From: a virus
Lineage: Duplodnaviria > Caudoviricetes
Direction: 5' to 3' (one strand)
Length of the DNA: 64,000 bases
IMG/VR virus record: IMGVR_UViG_3300021387_000796
Location: 128,001-192,000 of that record
Both the position numbers and the translations under genes were made by a program. Under the pieces are notes generated by a model. It was not told where the DNA came from and made no database searches. It saw only the letters and a list, made by a program, of their open reading frames with translations. This document shows, piece by piece, positions 1-8,799 of the stretch. How positions within the stretch are numbered: position 1 is the stretch's first letter; each line of letters starts with the position of its first letter.

Positions 1-1
1 T

Positions 2-220
2 CAAGTTGTTGAAGAAAAATGCGGACAAGGAATTAAATCAAGATACTCAAAAAATCAAAGAATCAATGATGCTGAATTATCTAGTTTGATGAGTGATTTT
101 GCACAGTATAAATTTGAAAAAATTAACACTTTAACAAAAATTAATTATAGATTTTATTATTATGATTTATTTGGTACAGAAATAAATTTATATTCTTTGA
201 ATTTAAACAAAATCAAATAG
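2..220 (+). CDS. 3' end of a hypothetical protein entering from the left edge
   Basis: Frame 2 open from window start (QVVEEKCGQG...LNKIK) to TAG at 218-220. Confidence 0.55.
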   Translation, partial: QVVEEKCGQGIKSRYSKNQRINDAELSSLMSDFAQYKFEKINTLTKINYRFYYYDLFGTEINLYSLNLNKIK

Positions 221-301
221 TCTTTGAAATATCCAAAAATCATCAAATTTTCAACAATAAAAAATTCGGTTGTTCTTTACATAAATTTATTCATAATGCT
301 T

Positions 302-490
302 TTAACTTTTGTTCACTTTTTCCCACCTTGCAACTTCTTCATCCGTGAGCCAATGCATAATACACACGTGTGCTTTACAATCTGAAGATTTATTTTCATC
401 GATAACAGTAACCATTGCAGTAACACCGTTTTTCTTAATTATATCTCCAACTTTCAAATTGACCCAAGAGTTATTCACAGTAGATTCCAT
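302..490 (-). CDS. hypothetical protein, paralog of the C-terminal domain of 4278..4670
   Basis: WVNLKVGDII..AMVTVID..HWLTDEEVARWEKV; GGAGG SD upstream. Confidence 0.75.
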   Translation of the reverse strand: MESTVNNSWVNLKVGDIIKKNGVTAMVTVIDENKSSDCKAHVCIMHWLTDEEVARWEKVNKS

Positions 491-493
491 AAA

Positions 494-703
494 TTAATCC
501 TCCTCTCTATCTGAAAACCGCATTTCAATATCACCGCTTTGATAATATACCTTATTCAAATATCCAAGCCAAAAATCGCCAACTTCTTCCCCTTTCTTCA
601 AATCCCATGGTGATTTGAAATTAATGTTTGCGGTTACTCTTGTATCTGCGTGTCCATAATCAATGAGTTTACCAAGTTCATCATAAAGTTCTTTCACTGT
701 CAT
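494..703 (-). CDS. hypothetical phage protein
   Basis: MTVKEL start, SD in the upstream gene end, tight packing. Confidence 0.75.
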   Translation of the reverse strand: MTVKELYDELGKLIDYGHADTRVTANINFKSPWDLKKGEEVGDFWLGYLNKVYYQSGDIEMRFSDREED

Positions 704-1072
704 TTATTCACTCTCCTTTGGAAGTACGATTTCTTTCCAAGCGATAACATCTTTTGATAAATGTTCATCTTCATACCCTTTGCTTTTTTCAACAAACAAT
801 TTCACATCATCATTTATAAATGCTTTTTTGTAAAAACCTAAAACTATACGTTTTCTAATTTTTGTTTCACCACCAACTTCATAATAACAATTTACATAAA
901 ATACCAGTTGTGTTTCTCCATCACATTTCGGAAGTTCACCCTTTGACGGATAATGCCATTCATTAGCCTTTTTATAGCCAAACTCTGCACCGTCTTTGAA
1001 AGCCTTGATATAATCTTCTTCTTTACTATGAAGATTATTTTTTATCCATCCTTCTGCTTCTTTTTCAAACAT
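704..1072 (-). CDS. modular hypothetical protein (MFEKEAE / AFKDGAEFGY / WHY..ELP / VIAWKEI modules)
   Basis: AGGAG SD; motifs shared with neighbours. Confidence 0.8.
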   Translation of the reverse strand: MFEKEAEGWIKNNLHSKEEDYIKAFKDGAEFGYKKANEWHYPSKGELPKCDGETQLVFYVNCYYEVGGETKIRKRIVLGFYKKAFINDDVKLFVEKSKGYEDEHLSKDVIAWKEIVLPKESE

Positions 1073-1081
1073 AATTTACTC

Positions 1082-1321
1082 CTAAAAATACGAAAACAAC
1101 TGTAGATTTATTCCCCATGTATTCCATAAAATAATCTTAAAACTTGAATATAAAGTAATAAAAATAAATTCTAATATAAAAATCAGCATAGAAACATATA
1201 TGACTTTCGTTACTTTATTTTCAATCGAAGAATGGCATATGAAACCAATTATAATACTTATGAATACCACACAAATATCAATAATGCTTGCGGTATAAAA
1301 TATTTTTTCCCACAACATCAT
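1082..1321 (-). CDS. small membrane protein (2 TM)
   Basis: two hydrophobic stretches. Confidence 0.7.
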   Translation of the reverse strand: MMLWEKIFYTASIIDICVVFISIIIGFICHSSIENKVTKVIYVSMLIFILEFIFITLYSSFKIILWNTWGINLQLFSYF

Positions 1322-1558
1322 TTATTCTTCCTCCACTGAACCACCAGAGCGAGCAAAGAAATCAGTATCTTCATAATCTAGTTCCTTTTTCATTTTGTTT
1401 AATTCATACTCAATCTCACTAATTAAATGTTCTTTAATTGCAACTTCTGTGTCTTCAGATTTCGATTTAATCTCTTTAAGTTTTGCATTAAAGAAATCTA
1501 TAAAGTCATAACCTGCTACATTTCCAACAAGATTGTGTGTTTCCCAACTTACTTCCAT
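1322..1558 (-). CDS. hypothetical protein
   Basis: AGGAGG SD, tight packing. Confidence 0.75.
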   Translation of the reverse strand: MEVSWETHNLVGNVAGYDFIDFFNAKLKEIKSKSEDTEVAIKEHLISEIEYELNKMKKELDYEDTDFFARSGGSVEEE

Positions 1559-1569
1559 ATTTTTCCTCC

Positions 1570-1845
1570 TTATAAAATACAGTCTCTTATTATCCGTTGT
1601 TTCAAAAGCGAGTCATATTCATCATATGTATCCCACTTTATCCAATGTTCTTCTTTTATTATTTTATGATGTCCTTTCCAATCGTATAACTCTCCTTCTA
1701 TCATGACTGCAAAATGTCCAAAGATGTCATCGTAATAAATATCACCTCCGAACCTTTCCTTTAGGATTATCGCAAAGTAGTAACAGTTGCCACTTAACCA
1801 TTCACAGTCAGTTTTGAATCTTTTATTTATAAAGTCTTCAATCAT
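1570..1845 (-). CDS. hypothetical phage protein (GNCYYFA..GHF..LYD motif)
   Basis: Cys/His/Asp arrangement resembling a papain-like fold; SD present. Confidence 0.75.
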   Translation of the reverse strand: MIEDFINKRFKTDCEWLSGNCYYFAIILKERFGGDIYYDDIFGHFAVMIEGELYDWKGHHKIIKEEHWIKWDTYDEYDSLLKQRIIRDCIL

Positions 1846-2074
1846 TATGTTCCTTTTCCAAAGTTTTATAAACCTTGTATCTCAACTTTTCATTCTCAAT
1901 CTGTTTCAAGACTAATTCATATTCCTTTTTCGCTTTATCACATTCCCATTGTGCTTTTTGTTTTTCGATTGTTTTGATTGAAAGATTCGTGCAAACAATA
2001 ACCAACATCAAAACACTACTTAATAGAATTGAACCGATTATTACACCATAAAGAATTTTCTTAGCCTTATCCAT
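1838..2074 (-). CDS. membrane-anchored coiled-coil protein
   Basis: N-terminal TM; directly after the sigma70 promoter at 2111-2140. Confidence 0.75.
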   Translation of the reverse strand: MDKAKKILYGVIIGSILLSSVLMLVIVCTNLSIKTIEKQKAQWECDKAKKEYELVLKQIENEKLRYKVYKTLEKEHND

Positions 2075-2110
2075 CCTTTACTCCAAAAAATAATATCAAT
2101 ACATAATTAA

Positions 2111-2140
2111 ATGATAGCACGACAAGCATCAATCTGTCAA
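2111..2140 (-). promoter_or_regulatory. sigma70-like early promoter
   Basis: TTGACA-N18-TATCAT with extended TG. Confidence 0.6.
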
Positions 2141-2158
2141 GTTAATTCTTATAATTAA

Positions 2159-2374
2159 TTATCGATTTAATTTTATTATCGCCAACACAAAAATAATAAA
2201 CATGAAGATGGTTTCAAATGTGAAAAAATCTTTAATTTTGCCATTTTTATAATCATAAGATATGAAAAAATTTAAAATGAAAAATAAACTCACGCAAAAA
2301 GAAGCCATAATTAAATCTTCTAAATTAAAAACCCAACCTAGCAACAACATTAATGTTGGAATCAGATTCATCAT
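2159..2374 (-). CDS. small membrane protein
   Basis: AGGAG SD before MMNLIP; hydrophobic. Confidence 0.65.
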   Translation of the reverse strand: MMNLIPTLMLLLGWVFNLEDLIMASFCVSLFFILNFFISYDYKNGKIKDFFTFETIFMFIIFVLAIIKLNR

Positions 2375-2467
2375 TCTCTCTCCTTTTTGAAGTTTTATAA
2401 TACATTTCGACATCCAAATAGATAACATCTCTTATTTTATAGTTGTATAATCACATAACTCGTATTT

Positions 2468-2755
2468 TTAATCGCTCCACTTCCAAGATAATCTTATAGC
2501 ATCATTTATATTGATTCCGTGATAAACTAAAACATCTTCCAAATCAGAAGTTAGAGAGTTTGAGCAAGTAAGGTAATCTCGATTTGTATGTTTTCTTAAA
2601 CATTCATTTATAGAATCATTTAATGCTTGTGACAGATTTCCATATCCCATTTTTTCTAATCGCCATTTTATAGAATCTTTTATCCAACTAGAAAATTCTA
2701 CACACATTGGATTTTCAAGAAAATCACCTTCAAATGTTTTTAATGTACTACTCAT
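2468..2755 (-). CDS. hypothetical protein
   Basis: AAGGAG SD supplied by the upstream LPKE codons. Confidence 0.75.
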   Translation of the reverse strand: MSSTLKTFEGDFLENPMCVEFSSWIKDSIKWRLEKMGYGNLSQALNDSINECLRKHTNRDYLTCSNSLTSDLEDVLVYHGININDAIRLSWKWSD

Positions 2756-2760
2756 GATTT

Positions 2761-3162
2761 TTACTCCTTTGGAAGCGCAACATCCTTTAAGAATTGCTCT
2801 GTTTCTTTAACTACTTTCGACTCTCTAACTTGCTCGCCATCTATGACTTCCAAAATATCAATCAGTTTTCTAAGAAGTTCTTTTGCTTTGTTTAACTGTT
2901 CTTTTTCATCTTGTGACATAACAACTAATTGTCGGTTAAGTTCTTGTCTGTCTGAAAGCATTTCTTCAACATTGTTATATAACTTATGAGTTGCAGTACC
3001 TTTCTTACGGAAATTTTCAAGTGTATTTTTTGAATCCTTATAATATTTAGGGTCTATAGGTTTCCATTCATACTTCTTTGTTGCAAGACTAAAGTACAAA
3101 TATAAAAGATACCCTTTTTCAAGACACTTTTTTGCTTCTAGTATAAGTTCTTCTTCAGTCAT
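2761..3162 (-). CDS. modular hypothetical protein (KAKELL..EQFLK module)
   Basis: start MTEEE after GGAGG; shares C-terminal module with 3723 and 5043 ORFs. Confidence 0.8.
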   Translation of the reverse strand: MTEEELILEAKKCLEKGYLLYLYFSLATKKYEWKPIDPKYYKDSKNTLENFRKKGTATHKLYNNVEEMLSDRQELNRQLVVMSQDEKEQLNKAKELLRKLIDILEVIDGEQVRESKVVKETEQFLKDVALPKE

Positions 3163-3356
3163 AGTTTCTCCTCCGCATAACCTTGATAACACTTAAGAAG
3201 TTCTTCCTCAATTTCCTTCTTACTTTTTTCTTTACCTGCTTTAAGTCCAGCAAGAAAGATATTCATAACTTTCTCTTTTCTTTCTTCTTCTCCAATATTC
3301 AAAGTAACAGGATAAATTTTGTAATAATATTCTTCTGCTAATTTTTCATCTGTCAT
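3159..3356 (-). CDS. modular hypothetical protein (AEEY / FLAGLKAG modules)
   Basis: GGAGG SD, ATGA overlap with the next gene. Confidence 0.75.
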   Translation of the reverse strand: MTDEKLAEEYYYKIYPVTLNIGEEERKEKVMNIFLAGLKAGKEKSKKEIEEELLKCYQGYAEEKL

Positions 3357-3561
3357 TTTGACACCTCCATTCTTCTAGCAGTAATTTCATTGTTGCTTCC
3401 GCATTTTGTGCCATTGCTTTATTCAATACCTTTACTAAGGCATTTATTGACGCAGTTCTAGGAACATTTTTACGAGCCAGTAGACGTTGTAAATCTCTTT
3501 TGGCTTTCTTGTTTGCCTTTTCATATATAACTAAATATACATGGTGGTTTGCTCTGTTCAT
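3346..3561 (-). CDS. basic hypothetical protein
   Basis: GGAGG SD, overlapping neighbours. Confidence 0.7.
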   Translation of the reverse strand: MNRANHHVYLVIYEKANKKAKRDLQRLLARKNVPRTASINALVKVLNKAMAQNAEATMKLLLEEWRCQNDR

Positions 3562-3719
3562 TTAACCAACCTCCTCTTTTCAAGACAAGAACAAGGAAAT
3601 GGTTTCCAATCAACAATGGTGACATCATTGGTTATATCACAGATAAAATCTCCACACTCTATATAAGTACAATGTTCACACAAGTCTAAGCACACTAGTT
3701 TTGGTTTTTCTTCTGTCAT
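3558..3719 (-). CDS. 53-aa Cys-rich protein (not in ORF track)
   Basis: MTEEKPKLVCLDLCEHCTYIECGDFICDITNDVTIVDWKPFPCSCLEKRRLVK; AAGGAG SD; ATGA overlap. Confidence 0.7.
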   Translation of the reverse strand: MTEEKPKLVCLDLCEHCTYIECGDFICDITNDVTIVDWKPFPCSCLEKRRLVK

Positions 3720-3722
3720 AAT

Positions 3723-4154
3723 CTACTCCTTCAAAAACTGCTCTGCTTTTTCAACAAAGTCGTTAAGCATTTCTTTTGCTTCTTTGGCAAAGGGTCTAAC
3801 TTGACCTTCAAAGATGAACTCTCGTTTTGTACCCTCTATACCGATTCTCATGATTTCTTTTGCTTCGGTGAGTTTTCCCCATACCTCTGCACATTCCTTG
3901 TTACAAATTTGCTTGGAATACCATTTATTCTTTGCTTTCAATTCTGCGTTTTCATTTACAAGTTCAACAATCTTATTATGCTTCTCAATGTCACCATTAA
4001 GAAGTTTTTCATTATAGGCTTTTAATTCTGCATTTTCTTTTTCAAAGTCTGAAAGTTCTTTACAGATAATCTCAAACCCTTGTTGCAGTGTCGAGTCTTT
4101 AAGTGCCATAGAGATTGCACCCATAACAGATAAACGTGCTTCTTCTTTAGTCAT
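3723..4154 (-). CDS. modular coiled-coil protein (ENAELK x2, LTEAKEI..AEQFLKE)
   Basis: GGGAG SD; repeated modules. Confidence 0.8.
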   Translation of the reverse strand: MTKEEARLSVMGAISMALKDSTLQQGFEIICKELSDFEKENAELKAYNEKLLNGDIEKHNKIVELVNENAELKAKNKWYSKQICNKECAEVWGKLTEAKEIMRIGIEGTKREFIFEGQVRPFAKEAKEMLNDFVEKAEQFLKE

Positions 4155-4277
4155 TTTCTATTATCTCCCTTAAATCACATTTTTATCAAATTCTCAATGT
4201 TCAAATAATCAATCATTATCTATCACAAATCCATGTAATTCTTGCTTTACTCCAAAGTTTTTTATATTGTCTTGTTT

Positions 4278-4670
4278 TCATTTTTCCACCTTTTCCCAAT
4301 CTTCGAGTTCTTCATCTGAATACCACTTATGACCTGCACAAATATGTATGCGATATTCTTTATCAATTTCTGTAATCATGGCAGTGAGGTTACCGTTAGT
4401 GATTATATCACCGATTTTCAAATCAGTCCATTTAAGTTTCTTTTCTTCCTCTGGTTCTGAGATAAGATAGGCGAGATTCCATCTAATATTATCTATAACA
4501 AATCTTTTGACTGCATCATCAGATTCAATATCTTCCAAAACTTCAATATATCCATCTTTATCAACAAGTTGTCTTAAACTAAACATACTATCTGCAACAA
4601 TAACCTTACTTCCAATTTTCAACTCATCCGCATTCAATGCGGTGTAAACTTTACTTTTATCGAATTCCAT
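4278..4670 (-). CDS. two-domain hypothetical protein (FDKSKVYTALNADELKIGS + KWTDLKIGDII..WEKVE)
   Basis: start MEFDK; C-domain paralogous to 302..490. Confidence 0.8.
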   Translation of the reverse strand: MEFDKSKVYTALNADELKIGSKVIVADSMFSLRQLVDKDGYIEVLEDIESDDAVKRFVIDNIRWNLAYLISEPEEEKKLKWTDLKIGDIITNGNLTAMITEIDKEYRIHICAGHKWYSDEELEDWEKVEK

Positions 4671-4675
4671 AATTT

Positions 4676-4882
4676 TCACCCCTCAATCAATTCAATTGGT
4701 TCGTAAGAATAAGATTCTACTGTCCAATCAATATCATCCAAATCAGAATTGTAATTATCAAATTCTGATTCTTCGGTCTTACCTTTACAGTAAGATTTTA
4801 CAGTCTTTTCATCGCAAATCATAACACCATGATTGTATGTATGATTATCAATTGATACTTTAATTAGCCACGCTTTCTTCAT
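4676..4882 (-). CDS. hypothetical protein
   Basis: GGGAG SD. Confidence 0.7.
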   Translation of the reverse strand: MKKAWLIKVSIDNHTYNHGVMICDEKTVKSYCKGKTEESEFDNYNSDLDDIDWTVESYSYEPIELIEG

Positions 4883-5042
4883 AAATTACTCCCTTACATT
4901 CACGATACAGATTTCGAAGTTCCATATATTTTTTATACATTTCGTTTCGTTCATCTTCAGAAGGATGTTTTGCAATCCCATAACTTCCATGAACAATAAA
5001 CTTTAATCTAATCATTTCCCAATACTGTTCTTTGGTCATAAA

Positions 5043-5296
5043 TTAATTCTCCTTTTTTAAAAATTGTTCAGCGTGTTGCAAAATAGTATGTGTATTTTTC
5101 AAAGCGAAGGTATAATCAGAATTCTCATTTTTAAGAGTATCCAACAATTCTTTTATAATTTCCTTCGCTTCATTATAAACAATGCCAGCACCTGCTCTAA
5201 ATCCAATCGCACATGCTTGTTCTTGTATATTTGTACACAAAGAACCTTCTAAACCATACACTTTTTCTGCATATTCTTCTGCTTTTTCTCAAACAT
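5043..5296 (-). pseudogene. frameshifted member of the MFEKEAEEY..AEQFLK family
   Basis: ATG at 5296 with AAGGAG SD; span 254 nt (3n+2); AEEYAEKVYG continues in the -1 frame after GAG AAA AAG. Confidence 0.65.
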
Positions 5297-5300
5297 AATC

Positions 5301-5537
5301 TTACTCCTTACAAGAATTCACAGTATCGCAGAATTCAAAATTTTTATTCATATCTGCATCATAAGAATACACGAAGGGAATAACCACAAGTTTATTTCCT
5401 TTATTTGCTTCTTTCATCGCAATCTGTTCGAGATTATCTAAATAAATTTCACCGTCAACTTGTGATACACAAATAATATCTTTATCAAAATCAATATCAT
5501 GCTTTTGAGCAAATACAATCAATTCATTTAATGTCAT
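5301..5537 (-). CDS. hypothetical protein
   Basis: AAGGAG SD before MTLNE. Confidence 0.7.
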   Translation of the reverse strand: MTLNELIVFAQKHDIDFDKDIICVSQVDGEIYLDNLEQIAMKEANKGNKLVVIPFVYSYDADMNKNFEFCDTVNSCKE

Positions 5538-5809
5538 AAACATTCTCCTTCATTATCACATTCCGCAGAATCGTAACCTTCTTCATATCCAACTTGATGA
5601 ATATTGTAATAAACTTCATCTACAAAAGATTTTACAAAATCTCTGCACTTCTCAGTATCTTTTATATTAAGACTAATATTACAATAAAGATTTCTAACAT
5701 TATCATCGAGCCATTCTTTTATTTCTTTTTCACTTTCTGGATGCAATGTTCCCCATTTAATTTCATATTGTGGAAAATCAGAACAAACAAACTTGTCGTC
5801 TTTAATCAT
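5534..5809 (-). CDS. hypothetical protein
   Basis: GGAGGTG SD before MIKDD. Confidence 0.75.
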   Translation of the reverse strand: MIKDDKFVCSDFPQYEIKWGTLHPESEKEIKEWLDDNVRNLYCNISLNIKDTEKCRDFVKSFVDEVYYNIHQVGYEEGYDSAECDNEGECL

Positions 5810-5827
5810 AATTATCACCTCCATTAA

Positions 5828-6088
5828 TCACACAATAAAATTATAAATTGTTACTTCAAGTCCATACGCTCTTTTCTGTTTGTACGGTTCTCCAAGTACA
5901 CCCATTTTCATAAGACGATTGAATTCGGTCTTTGAAATTCTAGGTGTTAAATTACACCAATCTTTATGAAAAGACTGTGTAATCAATTGGTAACAACATC
6001 CGTTATCCATAATTTTATCTTTTGAAGAACATATAAATTTTTGTCTTGTGTTAGTTGCTCTTACTTCAACAATTTTACTATAATCCAT
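5828..6088 (-). CDS. hypothetical protein
   Basis: AAGGAG SD before MDYSK. Confidence 0.75.
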   Translation of the reverse strand: MDYSKIVEVRATNTRQKFICSSKDKIMDNGCCYQLITQSFHKDWCNLTPRISKTEFNRLMKMGVLGEPYKQKRAYGLEVTIYNFIV

Positions 6089-6119
6089 AATTATCTCCTT
6101 AATCCGCAATAAAATATTC

Positions 6120-6587
6120 TTATCTATATGGTCTTTTTACAATTTCATCTTCATAATCCCATCTAAATTCAAATCTGCAACAATTTTCGCATTTCTCTTT
6201 ATTTACAGATTCATTATTTCTTCGATGAGGATTAAAACAATCATCGGCTTCTTTGCTATAATTCAAACAGTTTACAGTACAAAAATCTTCGCTTTTACAC
6301 TTTTTATATACTGCTTTCTGTTTATCTAATTCTTGTCCTAATGATTGTTCTAATTGACAGATAGAAACTTCTGAACGCAATTCAACTTCTCGTTTTCCGT
6401 TGTAACCACCTTTGAAAAATAATTTTAATAATTTAATTTTTGAAGGTTTTTTATAAACAGGAACCGAGATTGTGAACTTATCTTCTTCTTCCCCACTATA
6501 CATATGACTCAACTCGCTCCAATCGTGTTCCAAATCTTCAATTTTTTGTTCTTGTCTTTCTGCCCAATACTGTTGAGTTTTATTCAT
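6120..6587 (-). CDS. hypothetical protein with Cys-rich C-terminus
   Basis: AAGGAG SD; several Cys pairs. Confidence 0.75.
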   Translation of the reverse strand: MNKTQQYWAERQEQKIEDLEHDWSELSHMYSGEEEDKFTISVPVYKKPSKIKLLKLFFKGGYNGKREVELRSEVSICQLEQSLGQELDKQKAVYKKCKSEDFCTVNCLNYSKEADDCFNPHRRNNESVNKEKCENCCRFEFRWDYEDEIVKRPYR

Positions 6588-6599
6588 TATTTAATCTCC

Positions 6600-6821
6600 T
6601 TAATCTGCAATAAAATATTCCTTATGTTCATGGCATCCGTTTTCATCTTCCCAATGCTTTTCAGTACGATAACAAAGGATTTTATCTTTCAAGCCATGAA
6701 TATAATATTTTTCAATTACTTCATGTTTAGAAGGATATTCAACTGAACATGAAACACCTTCATGACGATAAACATTATTATCAAAATATTCATAATATTT
6801 CTTTGCAGATACCTTTTTCAT
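6600..6821 (-). CDS. hypothetical protein
   Basis: GAGGAG SD before MKKVS, directly after a promoter. Confidence 0.75.
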   Translation of the reverse strand: MKKVSAKKYYEYFDNNVYRHEGVSCSVEYPSKHEVIEKYYIHGLKDKILCYRTEKHWEDENGCHEHKEYFIAD

Positions 6822-6846
6822 AAAGTTATTCTCCTCTATGTTTATA

Positions 6847-6875
6847 AATATATCATAGAAGAGATTGAATGTCAA
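6847..6875 (-). promoter_or_regulatory. sigma70-like early promoter
   Basis: TAATTTTCC-TTGACA-N17-TATATT with TG extension. Confidence 0.75.
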
Positions 6876-6900
6876 GGAAAATTATTAAAAAATGTTAAAT

Positions 6901-6928
6901 AAAAATCCGCTCGAAATGGGAGCGGATT
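6901..6928 (-). terminator. intrinsic terminator after recA
   Basis: AATCCGCTC/GAGCGGATT stem followed by a T run. Confidence 0.75.
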
Positions 6929-6949
6929 AAAATATTGTCTATAGTTTAA

Positions 6950-8104
6950 TTATTCGTTTTCTGAATCTTGTGAAATCACATCATTATCATTTGATGTTAC
7001 TTTCAAATCTTCAAGTTCTGCCTTTTGAGCATTAATTTCGTCTGTTTTATCTTCATCTTGCATTACTGTTTTTTCATCAGCACATCTATAAGCATTCAAA
7101 GTTTCTTCATACAATTTATCTTTGAAATCTTCATGTTCTTTAAGATATTTACAGAACGCATCCTCGCCTTGCCATCTATGGTCTTCAGTACAAGATTCTT
7201 TATTTGGATAATAGAACCAAGCACCACCTTTACTTACAGTTCCTAATTGAACTGAAGAACGAGCCAAATCAGTAATTTTATCGATGCCTTCACCATAACG
7301 ACATACTAGAGTACATTTACGATAAGGAACACCAACTTTATTTTTAGTAACTTTGAATGTGATTTCGTTACTTACTGCAAGACCATCTTCTTCCGTAACT
7401 TTAGTCTGTCTACGCATGGTAACTTGTTGTGAGAATGTAAACTCCCCGCTACGACCGACACTTTTTACCTCAGACGGGCCCATTCCCATAGTATTTATTG
7501 CTGACCTGACTTGTTCTATAACAAGAAGTGTACAATTGTTATCCGCACAAACACCTGCTAACTGTTTATAAGCATTACCTAAAATACGAGCCACCAATGC
7601 CATACTTACAGAAGAAATTTCTTCATCATTCGCCTTGGAAGGTGAAAGTGCCGAGGTAGAATCAAGTACGGCTATACCATAAATGCCACTTGCGATTGAA
7701 TCACGAAGTTTTGTTAATCCTTCTTCTGCACTTTTTGTTTGGTCAATAACAACACGGTCTAAATCTACATGAAGTGCCTTCAAATATGAAATATCCGTAC
7801 TCTGTTCAGCGTCATAAATGTACGCATAAAAACTTGGGTCTTTTCTCTGTTGTTCAGCAATAGTCATATAAGCAAGAGATGATTTTGCCGATGAGAATGT
7901 ACCATTTATTGCACACACACGACCAACTGCAAATCCAGAATTTAATGCAAGGTCGATTCCCATAATACCTGTACTATAGAACTTTACTTTATCAAGATTA
8001 TTGGCGGTTTTTACTGCTCCGCTTTCACCGTATTTTTTACTGAACGATTTGTTTAACTCGGCTATTCGTTTTTTCTTTTCTTCCAAACTAAGAACTTCAC
8101 TCAT
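6950..8104 (-). CDS. recA: RecA/UvsX recombinase
   Basis: STG..GIDLAL, Walker A variant GTFSSAKS, YDAE, Walker B AVLDS, IEQVR, KNKVG.PYR, KGGAWF. Confidence 0.95.
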   Translation of the reverse strand: MSEVLSLEEKKKRIAELNKSFSKKYGESGAVKTANNLDKVKFYSTGIMGIDLALNSGFAVGRVCAINGTFSSAKSSLAYMTIAEQQRKDPSFYAYIYDAEQSTDISYLKALHVDLDRVVIDQTKSAEEGLTKLRDSIASGIYGIAVLDSTSALSPSKANDEEISSVSMALVARILGNAYKQLAGVCADNNCTLLVIEQVRSAINTMGMGPSEVKSVGRSGEFTFSQQVTMRRQTKVTEEDGLAVSNEITFKVTKNKVGVPYRKCTLVCRYGEGIDKITDLARSSVQLGTVSKGGAWFYYPNKESCTEDHRWQGEDAFCKYLKEHEDFKDKLYEETLNAYRCADEKTVMQDEDKTDEINAQKAELEDLKVTSNDNDVISQDSENE

Positions 8105-8199
8105 ATCTCTATATCTCCTTAAAAATAAGTTTTCACAATCATATCTAAATCACAACTAAAATTCAATACTAAAATGAAATTTCTTATTCATTTTCCTTT

Positions 8200-8799
8200 T
8201 TACTTCTCCATTATCTGAATTTTTACATTCGGTTCGCAAGGTAAATCACAACCCATACAAAAATGTTCTCCAAAGATTCTCATAAAATACCACAATTGAA
8301 ATTTACAATAACCTTCTTCATCAGTATCTAAAGTTGGCACATACTTATCATCGAGGTCGTGGTAATAGTTTCTATAAATTTCTTTACCTTTATCTGTAAG
8401 TTTTACCTTGATATATTCATTCAAATTGACATCTCTAAATCTGTCTTTCATTTTCTCAAACTCCATTTTTGCTTTAGATTTTGCAGATAAAAAATTATTC
8501 AATTGTTCTTCGTATTTACGAATTTCATTATTCAAAAAATTTTGATGTCGAATTGTATTTTCATAATCAATCCCTTCAATTTCAATTTTATCTTTACACT
8601 CGTTGTAATAAGGATGATATGTATTCTCAACATAAGGATTTGAATAAAAATGCACATGAATATTATCATCAAGTTTTACAAAATGTACAGATACAACATC
8701 AATATTCAGATAATCATCGTAAAAAGGTTTCTTTAGTTTATAAACTATATATTCATAAATATTTATACCGCTGATGTTCAAAATAGGTTCTACATTCAT
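8200..8799 (-). CDS. hypothetical protein, probably two fused domains
   Basis: AAGGAG SD; C-terminal NLNEYIKVKLT..FQLW..M.IFG phage-type domain. Confidence 0.75.
   Translation of the reverse strand: MNVEPILNISGINIYEYIVYKLKKPFYDDYLNIDVVSVHFVKLDDNIHVHFYSNPYVENTYHPYYNECKDKIEIEGIDYENTIRHQNFLNNEIRKYEEQLNNFLSAKSKAKMEFEKMKDRFRDVNLNEYIKVKLTDKGKEIYRNYYHDLDDKYVPTLDTDEEGYCKFQLWYFMRIFGEHFCMGCDLPCEPNVKIQIMEK

What the first reader, a model, noticed from the sequence alone, without database searches (positions are those of the whole stretch)
704..5296. Array of mini-genes assembled from shuffled peptide modules
Seen: neighbouring ORFs share short modules in different combinations. N-caps are MFEKEAE/MFEKxAEEY (1072, 5296) and MT(D/E/K)E(E/K) (3162, 3356, 3719, 4154). 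Middle modules are AFKDGAEFGY / GFRAGA / FLAGLKAG, and ENAELK occurs twice in 3723..4154. The tail AKE(I/L)..EQFLK occurs in 2761, 3723 and 5043, and LPKE ends both 704 and 2761 with the same DNA (CTCCTTTGGAAG). The intervening cores are unrelated, and terminal ..KE codons (AAGGAG) supply the SD of the next gene. Inference: the conserved caps may act as microhomology joints for recombinational swapping of cores, making a combinatorial library of early host-takeover or anti-defence proteins.
Basis: partly seen in the sequence, partly recalled or inferred. Interest (0 to 1): 0.7.

Follow-up and report, generated by a model that had tools for sequence, protein, structure and literature searches.

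The report
Mix-and-match mini-protein family in gut phages
A block of tiny genes in a 218-kb gut or rumen phage belongs to a large, unnamed family of phage mini-proteins built from a few interchangeable parts, whose near-constant ends are the places where related phages have swapped the variable middles.

Summary
Function is untested.

Five genes (704-1072, 2761-3162, 3159-3356, 3723-4154, 5043-5296, all minus strand) carry real, recurrent protein modules:
- N: a two-helix hairpin, MFEKEAEEY ... F.DGAEFGYNKA.
- C: a small beta-barrel, NEWHY.KDGDLPK ... VIAWKEIVLPKE.
- T: a C-terminal helix-loop-helix, QLTKAKEII ... AEQFLKE.
- CC: a coiled coil, ELEKENAELK.
- X: the N-terminal 44 residues of gene 3723.

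A profile search found 537 clusters (50% identity) of the N+C type. No Pfam, PHROGs or NCBIfam model matches.

The two variable segments, V1 and V2, reassort:
- 0 of 36 protein pairs that share V1 also share V2.
- 0 of 31 pairs that share V2 also share V1.

DNA alignments of relatives place the breakpoints at the start codon/N-cap, the central motif and the C-cap.

Other gut-metagenome contigs carry variants of this stretch:
- An in-frame 207-nt core deletion flanked by a 9-bp repeat.
- Loss of the whole array.

Some points are weaker:
- The shared LPKE 12-mer alone is not significant.
- Gene 5043 is frameshifted here.
- The MTxEE caps are enriched, but common descent is not proven.

This is a new, striking variant of known phage mosaicism.

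The parts
704..1072 (-). Gene 704, 122 aa. It is a canonical N+C member of the family. The N-cap lies at 1046-1072, V1 at 1004-1045, the central motif AFKDGAEFGYKKANEWHY at 950-1003, the variable barrel core V2 at about 749-949, and the C-cap VIAWKEIVLPKE at 713-748.
   Evidence: It matches the family profile at E 1.3e-33. The AlphaFold2 model has pLDDT 88.4. Its V1 is shared with P0126, and by eye with P0074 and P0080. Its V2 is shared with P0034, and by eye with P0025, P0033, P0044, P0055, P0086, P0132 and P0147. Contigs of other phages match only 704-742 and 950-1003.
2761..3162 (-). Gene 2761, 133 aa. It has an MTEEEL cap, its own core, and a T tail (KEQLNKAKELL...ETEQFLK, about 2785-2904). 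The last seven codons, DVALPKE (2764-2784), may be a remnant of a C-cap.
   Evidence: The T-tail profile gives E 3e-4, rank 3 of 4096 ORFs. blastp against L021 1013-1495 gives 9e-5 and against P0011 1e-3. A contig of run X4 lacks 2937-3143 in frame, and the deletion is flanked by TAAGTTCTT. The 12-mer shared with gene 704 is not significant alone.
3159..3356 (-). Gene 3159, 65 aa. It is an N-type module with the alternative cap MTDEKLAEEY and the centre variant FLAGLKAGK, followed by a short K/E-rich remnant that resembles the first T helix.
   Evidence: It is 68% identical over 50 residues to P0115 residues 62-111, which begin MFEKEAEEYYYK and continue into a full T tail. L009 286-552 gives 2e-5. 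A contig of run X1 at depth 151 joins 3339-3266 to 979-950. The family profile A5 did not detect it at E <= 1.
3558..3719 (-). Gene 3558, 53 aa, Cys-rich. It shares only the MTEEK start. Membership is not shown.
   Evidence: It has no hit to any collected family protein at E <= 0.05 and no family match.
3723..4154 (-). Gene 3723, 143 aa. It consists of module X (residues 1-44, 4023-4154), two ENAELK coiled-coil repeats (4020-4037 and 3936-3953), and a T tail (about 3726-3878).
   Evidence: Module X recurs in several relatives: in L001/L002 at 88% nt over 4020-4169, in L013 4458-4856 at 7e-12, and in P0172 and P0174 at 9e-11 and 3e-8. Each time it sits beside different partners. The CC+T part aligns to L008 4479-4823 at 2e-5. 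The T-tail profile gives only E 0.1, rank 4.
5043..5296 (-). Gene 5043, N+T architecture. In this genome it is broken by a one-base-short A-run (five A at 5283-5287). The intact form is 84 aa.
   Evidence: The sequence is. The intact protein P0001 matches the window's reading frame at 100% identity over 99% of the query, and four further colinear orthologs are 84-89% identical. The probable source run X1 keeps five A, while X5 and X4 carry a one-base insertion that restores MFEKK/MFEKE.
6847..6928 (-). A terminator-like hairpin (6904-6928) followed by a sigma-70-like promoter (6847-6875, 11 of 12 with TG). It lies after the recA/uvsX-like gene and is the likely start of the mini-gene operon.
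   Evidence: The stretch 6843-6954 is 83% identical in L001/L002, although what follows it there differs.

Best explanation
The flagged stretch is part of a tightly packed accessory operon downstream of the recA/uvsX-like gene of a 218-kb, 29% G+C phage from animal gut or rumen samples. At least five of its mini-genes belong to one large, uncatalogued, mosaic superfamily of phage mini-proteins built from a small set of interchangeable modules:
- N: a two-helix hairpin.
- C: an SH3-like, DUF551-like beta-barrel.
- T: a C-terminal helix-loop-helix.
- CC: a short coiled coil.
- X: the N-terminal module of gene 3723.

Each module has nearly invariant ends and a hypervariable interior.

Shown:
- The interiors (V1, V2) and whole modules occur in many combinations across related phages.
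- The DNA breakpoints lie in the invariant pieces: the start codon/N-cap, the central GAEFGYNKANEWH motif, and the C-cap/stop.
- Natural populations carry deletions, replacements and gene fusions of these units.

Inferred:
- The invariant pieces are kept mainly because they form the structural framework of the modules.
- Their 27-75 nt of near-identical DNA also serves as the substrate for short-homology recombination. Shorter repeats of about 9 bp serve the same role within a genome. Recombination would occur between tandem paralogs and between co-infecting phages, plausibly through the phage's own RecA/UvsX-type recombinase.
- Because neighbouring genes abut, with the next gene's ribosome-binding site inside the last codons, single changes turn neighbours into fusions and back.
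- The products are most likely small binding or adaptor proteins made early in infection, diversified in a phage-host or phage-phage conflict. I put this function at roughly one chance in three.
For: Modules recur outside the window in other contexts:
- Of the 11 relatives of gene 5043 at E <= 0.01 (13 candidates scored), 5 are colinear.
- The other 6 carry only its N part or only its T tail, joined to other sequence. Among them are P0006 and P0010, which have a gene-704-type C domain ending WKEIVLP.

Family size: 537 clusters at E <= 1e-3, of which 169 at <= 1e-10.

Reassortment among the 114 proteins where both segments could be extracted:
- 21 V1 clusters gave 36 pairs, of which 0 share V2.
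- 21 V2 clusters gave 31 pairs, of which 0 share V1.
- Median identity is 77% within V1 clusters and 67% within V2 clusters.

Breakpoints at nucleotide resolution:
- L004 and L005 are alike from the ATG through V1 and the centre (67 of 90 and 80 of 90 columns in the two blocks). They are unrelated upstream and after NEWH.
- L007 7951-8373 and L009 1058-1423 share the 27-nt N-cap and then about 90% identity from the centre to the C-cap. V1 and both flanks are unrelated.

Other support:
- Codon choice in the caps is more alike than codon usage predicts: 347 of 396 against 280 expected, 416 of 608 against 359, and 56 of 95 against 46.
- Population variants include the in-frame 207-nt deletion with a 9-bp repeat, 2283->5334 with 39 letters between, and 2755->4200 with 20 letters between.
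- Fusions: in L001/L002 the stop codon is lost and a T-tail gene runs into the ortholog of gene 2468. The 12 longer proteins I read, of 14 found, are concatenations of the same modules.
- Tandem arrays occur in L003, L007 and L009 and in genome-bin contigs.
- Fold: the model has pLDDT 88.4. Twenty of the top 50 BFVD matches are DUF551 proteins.
- A sigma-70-like promoter follows the recA-like gene.
Against: - The library holds one representative per 50%-identity cluster. Colinear pairs are therefore collapsed, and the 0-of-36 and 0-of-31 counts overstate how often recombinants occur.
- The codon-identity test uses non-independent pairs.
- Only two pairs of genes were aligned at DNA level for breakpoints.
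- Within this genome the paralogous caps differ at synonymous sites and share at most 13-28 nt of imperfect DNA. Recent exchange inside this genome is not shown.
- Most 'joints' are contigs of other phages laid at 88% likeness. The tool warns that such joints often come from other organisms. They show shared caps, not events in this phage.
- No data bear on expression, on binding partners or on the recombinase used.
- The DUF551 link rests on weak structural scores (best E 4.6e-3). No sequence model matches.
Confidence: 0.7

Rival explanations
1. Chance resemblance. The 'modules' are only K/E-rich helices and ribosome-binding-site-constrained endings that look alike in an A+T-rich genome.
For: The shared LPKE 12-mer is within chance: about 0.13 such pairs are expected in the block. 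The ..KE endings follow from AAGGAG ribosome-binding sites inside the upstream gene. Gene 3558 shares nothing beyond its first five residues. In all-vs-all blastp of the 23 block proteins, only one pair, 302 against 4278, was strongly significant.
Against: Independent profiles recover genes 704, 5043 and 2761 at E 1e-33 to 3e-4. EQFL at three neighbouring C-termini has an expectation of 0.021. The same modules recur at 50-90% identity in hundreds of proteins from other phages.
Confidence: 0.03
2. Framework plus fast-evolving loops, without exchange. This would be one colinear family whose framework is frozen by structure, while the interiors diverged beyond recognition by point mutation and small indels under diversifying selection.
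For: The caps are conserved at the protein level and differ at synonymous sites among the window's paralogs. The model places the caps in regular helices and strands. Colinear orthologs of gene 5043 exist (P0001-P0005).
Against: V1 segments with a median 77% identity sit beside V2 segments with no detectable similarity, and the reverse also holds. In DNA alignments identity drops from about 90-97% to background exactly at the caps, and the flanks are unrelated. Modules also sit beside entirely different module types: N+T, CC+C, X+CC+C.
Confidence: 0.07
3. Expression-cassette boundaries. The conserved 5' and 3' ends would be kept mainly as nucleic-acid signals (ribosome-binding site, start region, translational coupling to the next gene). 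They would let unrelated mini-genes be gained, lost and reordered as whole units, and the proteins would share no common function.
For: At 14 of 22 junctions the next ribosome-binding site lies inside the upstream gene. A 27-nt direct repeat (26 of 27), made of the last codons, the stop and the ribosome-binding site, flanks gene 6120. Whole-gene indels exist in other samples. Synonymous identity is highest in the N-cap, at 88% against 71% expected.
Against: The best-conserved piece is internal: GAEFGYNKANEWHY.KDGDLP, in the middle of the gene. It is a breakpoint too. The N-cap and centre are predicted as a helical hairpin in a confident model. In fused proteins the caps are kept far from any start or stop.
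Confidence: 0.1
4. Programmed diversification by a dedicated enzyme, such as a diversity-generating retroelement or a site-specific shufflon.
For: The design is hypervariable segments between invariant motifs, in tandem arrays.
Against: The genome has no reverse transcriptase at E <= 0.01. The variable segments differ in length and are unrelated, not point-mutated at adenines. The array shows no long inverted repeats, the best being 30 nt at 70%. I did not search for invertases.
Confidence: 0.03

Closest known systems
gp38 adhesins of T2/T6-type phages, with glycine-rich motifs (GRMs) separating hypervariable segments (Trojet et al. 2011, PMC3157838; abstract read)
   Same: Highly conserved short motifs form the structural core and delimit several independently exchangeable hypervariable segments. 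That modular design is the closest match to MFEKEAEEY | V1 | GAEFGYNKANEWHY | V2 | VIAWKEIVLP.
   Different: There is no sequence or fold relation. gp38 is a virion adhesin at the tail-fibre tip with a known role in host range. The present proteins are 65-145-aa products of an accessory operon, with helical and SH3-like modules and unknown function.
PeSL cassettes (promoter-early stem-loops) in hyperplastic regions of T4-type phages (Arbiol et al. 2010, PMC2839356; abstract read. Comeau et al. 2014, PMC4122927; search listing only)
   Same: Short conserved repeats in a region of small non-essential genes mediate gain, loss and replacement of ORFans by recombination. A terminator-plus-promoter unit heads the array here and is conserved in relatives with different downstream genes.
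   Different: PeSLs are intergenic regulatory elements that move whole genes. Here most junctions have gaps of 12 nt or less (18 of 22), only 2 terminator-like sites lie in 8.2 kb against 1.9 expected, and the recombining stretches are coding and lie inside genes, so new proteins are made.
Lambda Ea22 and its Stx-phage variants in the exo-xis region, and the portable DUF551 domain (PMC10834534; passages read)
   Same: These are early, non-essential, mosaic proteins with an N-terminal part, a coiled coil and interchangeable C-terminal domains. One variant carries DUF551. Family members such as P0033 and P0055 are coiled coil plus C module, and the C module's model resembles predicted DUF551 structures.
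   Different: No Pfam DUF551 or Ea22 model matches any of the 150 members scanned or the genome. Ea22 variants swap whole C-terminal domains. The near-invariant caps around two hypervariable segments are not described there.

Membership tests
Pfam DUF551 (PF04448) | Match to the Pfam profile above its curated cut-off | tested here: not met
   0 of 150 family members match at E <= 0.01. 0 of 8 match at E <= 1. Gene 704 has no match at E <= 0.1. The six-frame search of the whole genome finds nothing at E <= 1, while the control genomes respond.
Pfam DUF551 (PF04448) | Same fold as DUF551 proteins | tested here: inconclusive
   20 of the top 50 BFVD Foldseek matches of the gene-704 model are named DUF551 proteins, but the scores are weak (best E 4.6e-3, TM 0.3-0.57). 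Against solved structures only generic SH3-like, Tudor, Sm and WYL barrels appear, with Z <= 5.4. The Atlas lists a DUF551 cluster at rank 21 with score 0.89, which is a lead only.
Lambda Ea22 / Ead_Ea22 family | Ea22-type N-terminal and coiled-coil signature (InterPro IPR025153, as named in PMC10834534) | tested here: not met
   No Ea22-type Pfam family appears among the 10 families hit by any of the 150 members or by the window's 24 proteins. InterPro itself was not available.
PeSL-type modular shuffling (T4 hyperplastic regions) | Repeated intergenic promoter-plus-stem-loop cassettes flanking the exchanged genes | tested here: not met
   One terminator-plus-promoter unit lies at 6847-6928, and two further promoter-like sites at 2111-2140 and 4160-4189. 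There are 2 terminator-like sites in 8.2 kb against 1.9 expected, and 37 promoter-like sites against 42.8 expected. 18 of 22 gene junctions have gaps of 12 nt or less.
gp38-type GRM/HVS design | Conserved motifs that separate independently exchanged hypervariable segments | tested here: met
   This is a likeness of design only. Homology to gp38 was not tested, and nothing suggests it.
Diversity-generating retroelement target | Reverse transcriptase and a template repeat near the variable gene | tested here: not met
   No RVT_1 match in the genome at E <= 0.01. The variable segments are unrelated in sequence and length.

The most novel reading that the evidence does not exclude
The invariant caps would be selected at the DNA level as recombination linkers. 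The family would then be a built-in combinatorial generator. The phage's own RecA/UvsX-type recombinase would reshuffle V1, V2 and whole modules between tandem copies and co-infecting relatives, so that each phage population carries a library of small binders against variable host defence or rival-phage targets. This would be a cytoplasmic counterpart of the gp38 adhesin design, working inside 100-residue proteins.
Probability: 0.2. Interest if true: 0.85.

Novelty: new variant of a known kind. Interest (0 to 1): 0.62.

Why it matters
Most genes of large phages are small ORFans of unknown origin. This family shows, with breakpoints visible at nucleotide level, one way such genes are made. A handful of modules with frozen ends and free interiors are recombined at three fixed junctions, fused by loss of a stop codon and split again.

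The family is large: 537 clusters at 50% identity. It is absent from Pfam, PHROGs and NCBIfam, and it is confined so far to gut and rumen phage sequences.

It offers a compact natural system for two questions. One is how short-homology recombination creates new proteins. The other is what a conserved scaffold with two swappable inserts binds. If the products prove to be counter-defence or exclusion factors, the variable inserts would point to their targets.

Tried and rejected
- Phage GenBank collection: megablast of 1-8200 and tblastn of genes 3723 and 704 found nothing.
- The search for related loci with gene 3723 alone: 22 pattern matches, none confirmed.
- Alignments A2 and A5 were too divergent for pattern scans. 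I used the narrower A3 and A6 instead.
- First structure prediction with 6 sequences: pLDDT 47, discarded.
- Foldseek against solved structures: no match at E <= 0.001, only weak ribosomal protein bL19-like rows.
- NCBIfam, Pfam and PHROGs: no credible family for any module.
- Gene 3558 as a stand-alone version of the Cys-rich stretch seen in P0161, P0171 and P0174: no similarity at E <= 0.05, idea dropped.
- Gene 2761's ending KDVALPKE as a deleted C-cap (KDVIAWKEIVLPKE in gene 704): plausible by eye, but the 12-mer is within chance, so it is kept only as a suggestion.
- Host assignment: the 12 genome-bin loci carry labels from Treponema (4), Eubacteriales (2), Bacteroidales (2), Lachnospiraceae, Christensenellaceae, Ruminococcus and Enterousia. 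Binning of phage contigs is unreliable, so I draw no host from it.
- Literature: searches for DUF551 with phage, DUF551/mosaic/exo-xis and intragenic mosaicism/domain shuffling/accessory genes returned no paper on this family. No supplementary files were opened.

Full report
**Setting.**
- The window is bases 128,001-192,000 of a single 218,066-bp virus record with 29.4% G+C.
- Bases 300-6900 hold about 23 small genes on the minus strand, downstream of a recA/uvsX-like gene at 6950-8104 (Pfam RecA 3e-41, PHROG UvsX-like 8e-53).
- A terminator-like hairpin (6904-6928) and a sigma-70-like promoter (6847-6875, 11 of 12 with TG) follow the recA-like gene.
- Further promoter-like sites lie at 2111-2140 and 4160-4189.
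- Gene junctions are tight. At 14 of 22 junctions the next gene's ribosome-binding site lies inside the last codons of the upstream gene. Five of those genes end ..KE with AAGGAG.
- Apart from a YunG-like protein (gene 1570-1845) and two PHROGs of unknown function, no family model matches the small proteins.

**The observation.**
- The ATG at 5296 has a strong ribosome-binding site but opens only a 15-codon frame.
- The body of the gene lies in the -1 frame behind a run of five A.
- An intact 84-residue form, P0001, matches the window's reading frame at 100% identity over 99% of the query. Four further colinear orthologs are 84-89% identical.
- Contigs of two other runs carry a one-base insertion that restores MFEKK or MFEKE. 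The probable source run keeps five A.

The similarities exceed chance.
- EQFL occurs genome-wide only at the C-termini of genes 2761, 3723 and 5043, against 0.021 expected in that position.
- A T-tail profile built without window sequences ranks these three genes 1st, 3rd and 4th of 4096 ORFs, at E 1.6e-15, 3e-4 and 0.1. Second place goes to another N+T gene outside the window, at genome position 118,330-118,566.
- MT[DEK]E[EK] starts are enriched in the block: 4 of 22 genes against 2 of 303 elsewhere, p = 2.2e-4.
- The LPKE 12-mer alone is within chance.

**What the modules are.** A search with gene 5043 gave 11 relatives at E <= 0.01 among 13 candidates. Five are colinear. Six keep only one half at 50-85% identity beside unrelated sequence:
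- P0006 has the N part plus a gene-704-type domain ending VIAWKEIVLPKEE.
- P0010 has part of the N part behind a Cys-rich N-terminus, plus the same type of domain, ending WKEIVLPIELRK.
- P0007 has the N part plus another C-terminus.
- P0008, P0009 and P0011 have other N-termini plus the T tail.

Seven viral-contig loci carry N-type genes, several in tandem. A profile of six N+C proteins found 537 clusters at E <= 1e-3 and 169 at <= 1e-10, in a library of one representative per 50%-identity cluster.

The 150 best hits share a striking plan:
- MFEKEAEEY.
- A variable V1 of about 10-50 residues.
- F.DGAEFGYNKA, then NEWHY.KDGDLPK.
- A variable V2 of about 30-70 residues.
- VIAWKEIVLP(K/E)..E.

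In several members an insertion splits GAEFGYNKA from NEWHY. The plan is therefore two modules, N and C.

Further recurrent pieces:
- The T tail, (Q)LTKAKEII..LL ... AEQFL.
- The coiled coil ELEKENAELK, often followed by CLK.LAK.G.IKF.
- Module X of gene 3723, which also appears in L001/L002, L013, P0172 and P0174.

The window's genes read as follows:

| Gene | Composition |
|---|---|
| 704 | N+C |
| 5043 | N+T, frameshifted |
| 3159 | N with the alternative cap and a shortened tail (68% identical over 50 residues to part of P0115) |
| 2761 | capped core + T |
| 3723 | X + two CC repeats + T |

Gene 3558 shares only its first five residues and is not shown to belong.

**Fold.**
- With 150 sequences, AlphaFold2 gives gene 704 a pLDDT of 88.4. 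It predicts two helices (2-12, 18-36) and a five-stranded beta domain (56-114).
- Twenty of the top 50 BFVD matches are named DUF551 proteins, with weak scores.
- Solved structures give only generic SH3-like barrels, with Z <= 5.4.
- No DUF551 profile match exists for 150 members or in the genome.
- I therefore call the C module DUF551-like in fold, not a member.

**Exchange.** I cut V1 and V2 out of 114 proteins and clustered each.
- The 21 V1 clusters with two or more members gave 36 pairs, of which 0 share V2.
- The 21 V2 clusters gave 31 pairs, of which 0 share V1.
- Chains link many proteins. For example, P0015 and P0039 share V1, P0039 and P0068 share V2, P0068 and P0052 share V1, and P0052 and P0153 share V2.
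- The library collapses colinear pairs, so these counts show that exchange happens, not how often.

At DNA level:
- L004 and L005 are near-identical from the ATG through V1 and the centre. They are unrelated upstream and after NEWH.
- L007 7951-8373 and L009 1058-1423 share the 27-nt N-cap, differ completely in V1, are about 90% alike from the centre to the C-cap, and differ again downstream.
- Codon choice in the caps, including minor codons such as GAG, GGC, AAC and AAG, is more alike than codon usage predicts. The pairs are not independent.
- Inside this genome, by contrast, the paralogous caps differ at synonymous sites and share only short imperfect repeats. The caps are kept as protein, and recent exchange within this genome is not shown.

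**Population and relatives.**
- In L001/L002 (RecA 88% identical), the promoter unit is followed by a fragment of gene 5828. Next comes one ORF with module X, its own middle and a T tail. That ORF runs without a stop into the ortholog of gene 2468. Genes 3558, 3346, 3159 and 2761 are absent.
- A contig of run X4 lacks 2937-3143 in frame, leaving MTEEEL joined to the tail half of gene 2761. The 9-bp repeat TAAGTTCTT bounds the deletion.
- Other contigs replace 2284-5333 by 39 letters and 2756-4199 by 20 letters.
- Many contigs of other, more abundant phages in the same samples match only 704-742 and 950-1003, or join caps of different window genes. I read these as further family members, as the tool's warning suggests.
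- The 12 longer proteins I read, of 14 found, are concatenations of the same modules. One carries an HTH_28 domain.
- There is no reverse transcriptase in the genome.

**Interpretation.**
- Shown: a large mosaic family, reassortment of V1, V2 and whole modules, breakpoints at the conserved motifs, and cap- or repeat-bounded indels and fusions in nature.
- Inferred: short-homology recombination as the mechanism, with the adjacent recA/uvsX-like gene as the likely enzyme, and early expression.
- Guessed: a role as small binders in phage-host conflict.

**Closest known.**
- The nearest design is the gp38 adhesin, with conserved glycine-rich motifs between hypervariable segments (abstract).
- The nearest process is PeSL-mediated shuffling in T4-type phages (abstract).
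- The nearest protein type is the mosaic Ea22/DUF551 proteins of lambdoid phages (passages).
- I found no paper on this family.
I did not test it.

**Verdict.** The recombination reading is largely right. Function is open. It is a new and unusually clean variant of phage mosaicism.

Noticed in passing
window 5281-5296 (minus strand): Gene 5043 is frameshifted at a run of five A. Relatives have six A (MFEKK) or an inserted G (MFEKE). The site reads G-AAA-AAG, so a -1 ribosomal slip is conceivable. A plain inactivating mutation is the simpler reading.
   Followed up: partly
window 302-490 and 4278-4670 (minus strand): Gene 302 (62 aa) is a paralog of the C-terminal 50 residues of gene 4278: 46% identity over 54 columns, E 7e-15.
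   Followed up: partly
window 6093-6119 and 6594-6620: A 27-nt direct repeat (26 of 27) flanks gene 6120-6587. It is made of the last codons of gene 6600, its stop and the next ribosome-binding site. This looks like the scar of a whole-gene cassette insertion or duplication.
   Followed up: no
L001 12248-12907 (same in L002): The stop codon of a T-tail gene is lost (AAGGAGTAA in the window, AAGGAGCAA here). The gene therefore runs in frame into the ortholog of gene 2468, giving a 219-aa two-part protein in two separate viral contigs.
   Followed up: partly
genome positions 118330-118566 and 104772-105092 (plus strand, outside the window): There are further family members in the other arm of the genome. 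One is a 78-aa N+T protein (T-tail profile E 1.7e-7). The other is a 106-aa protein with an MTREERANDYAEHN start and an ELKNENDELK coiled coil.
   Followed up: no
window 2284-5333: Contigs of runs X4 and X5 join 2283 to 5334 with 39 other letters between. Some related phages therefore lack the whole stretch from gene 2468 to gene 5043.
   Followed up: partly
L013 (a 2.06-Mb chromosome labelled Treponema sp. in the genome collection): An N+C gene (3998-4321) lies beside a gene with module X and a T tail (4458-4856) inside a bacterial chromosome record. This may be a prophage and a lead to a host.
   Followed up: no
window 1570-1845 (minus strand): This is a phage YunG-like protein (Pfam PF24591, E 6.7e-10; PHROG 4814). 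A homolog lies near the mini-gene array in L008 (6277-6558).
   Followed up: no
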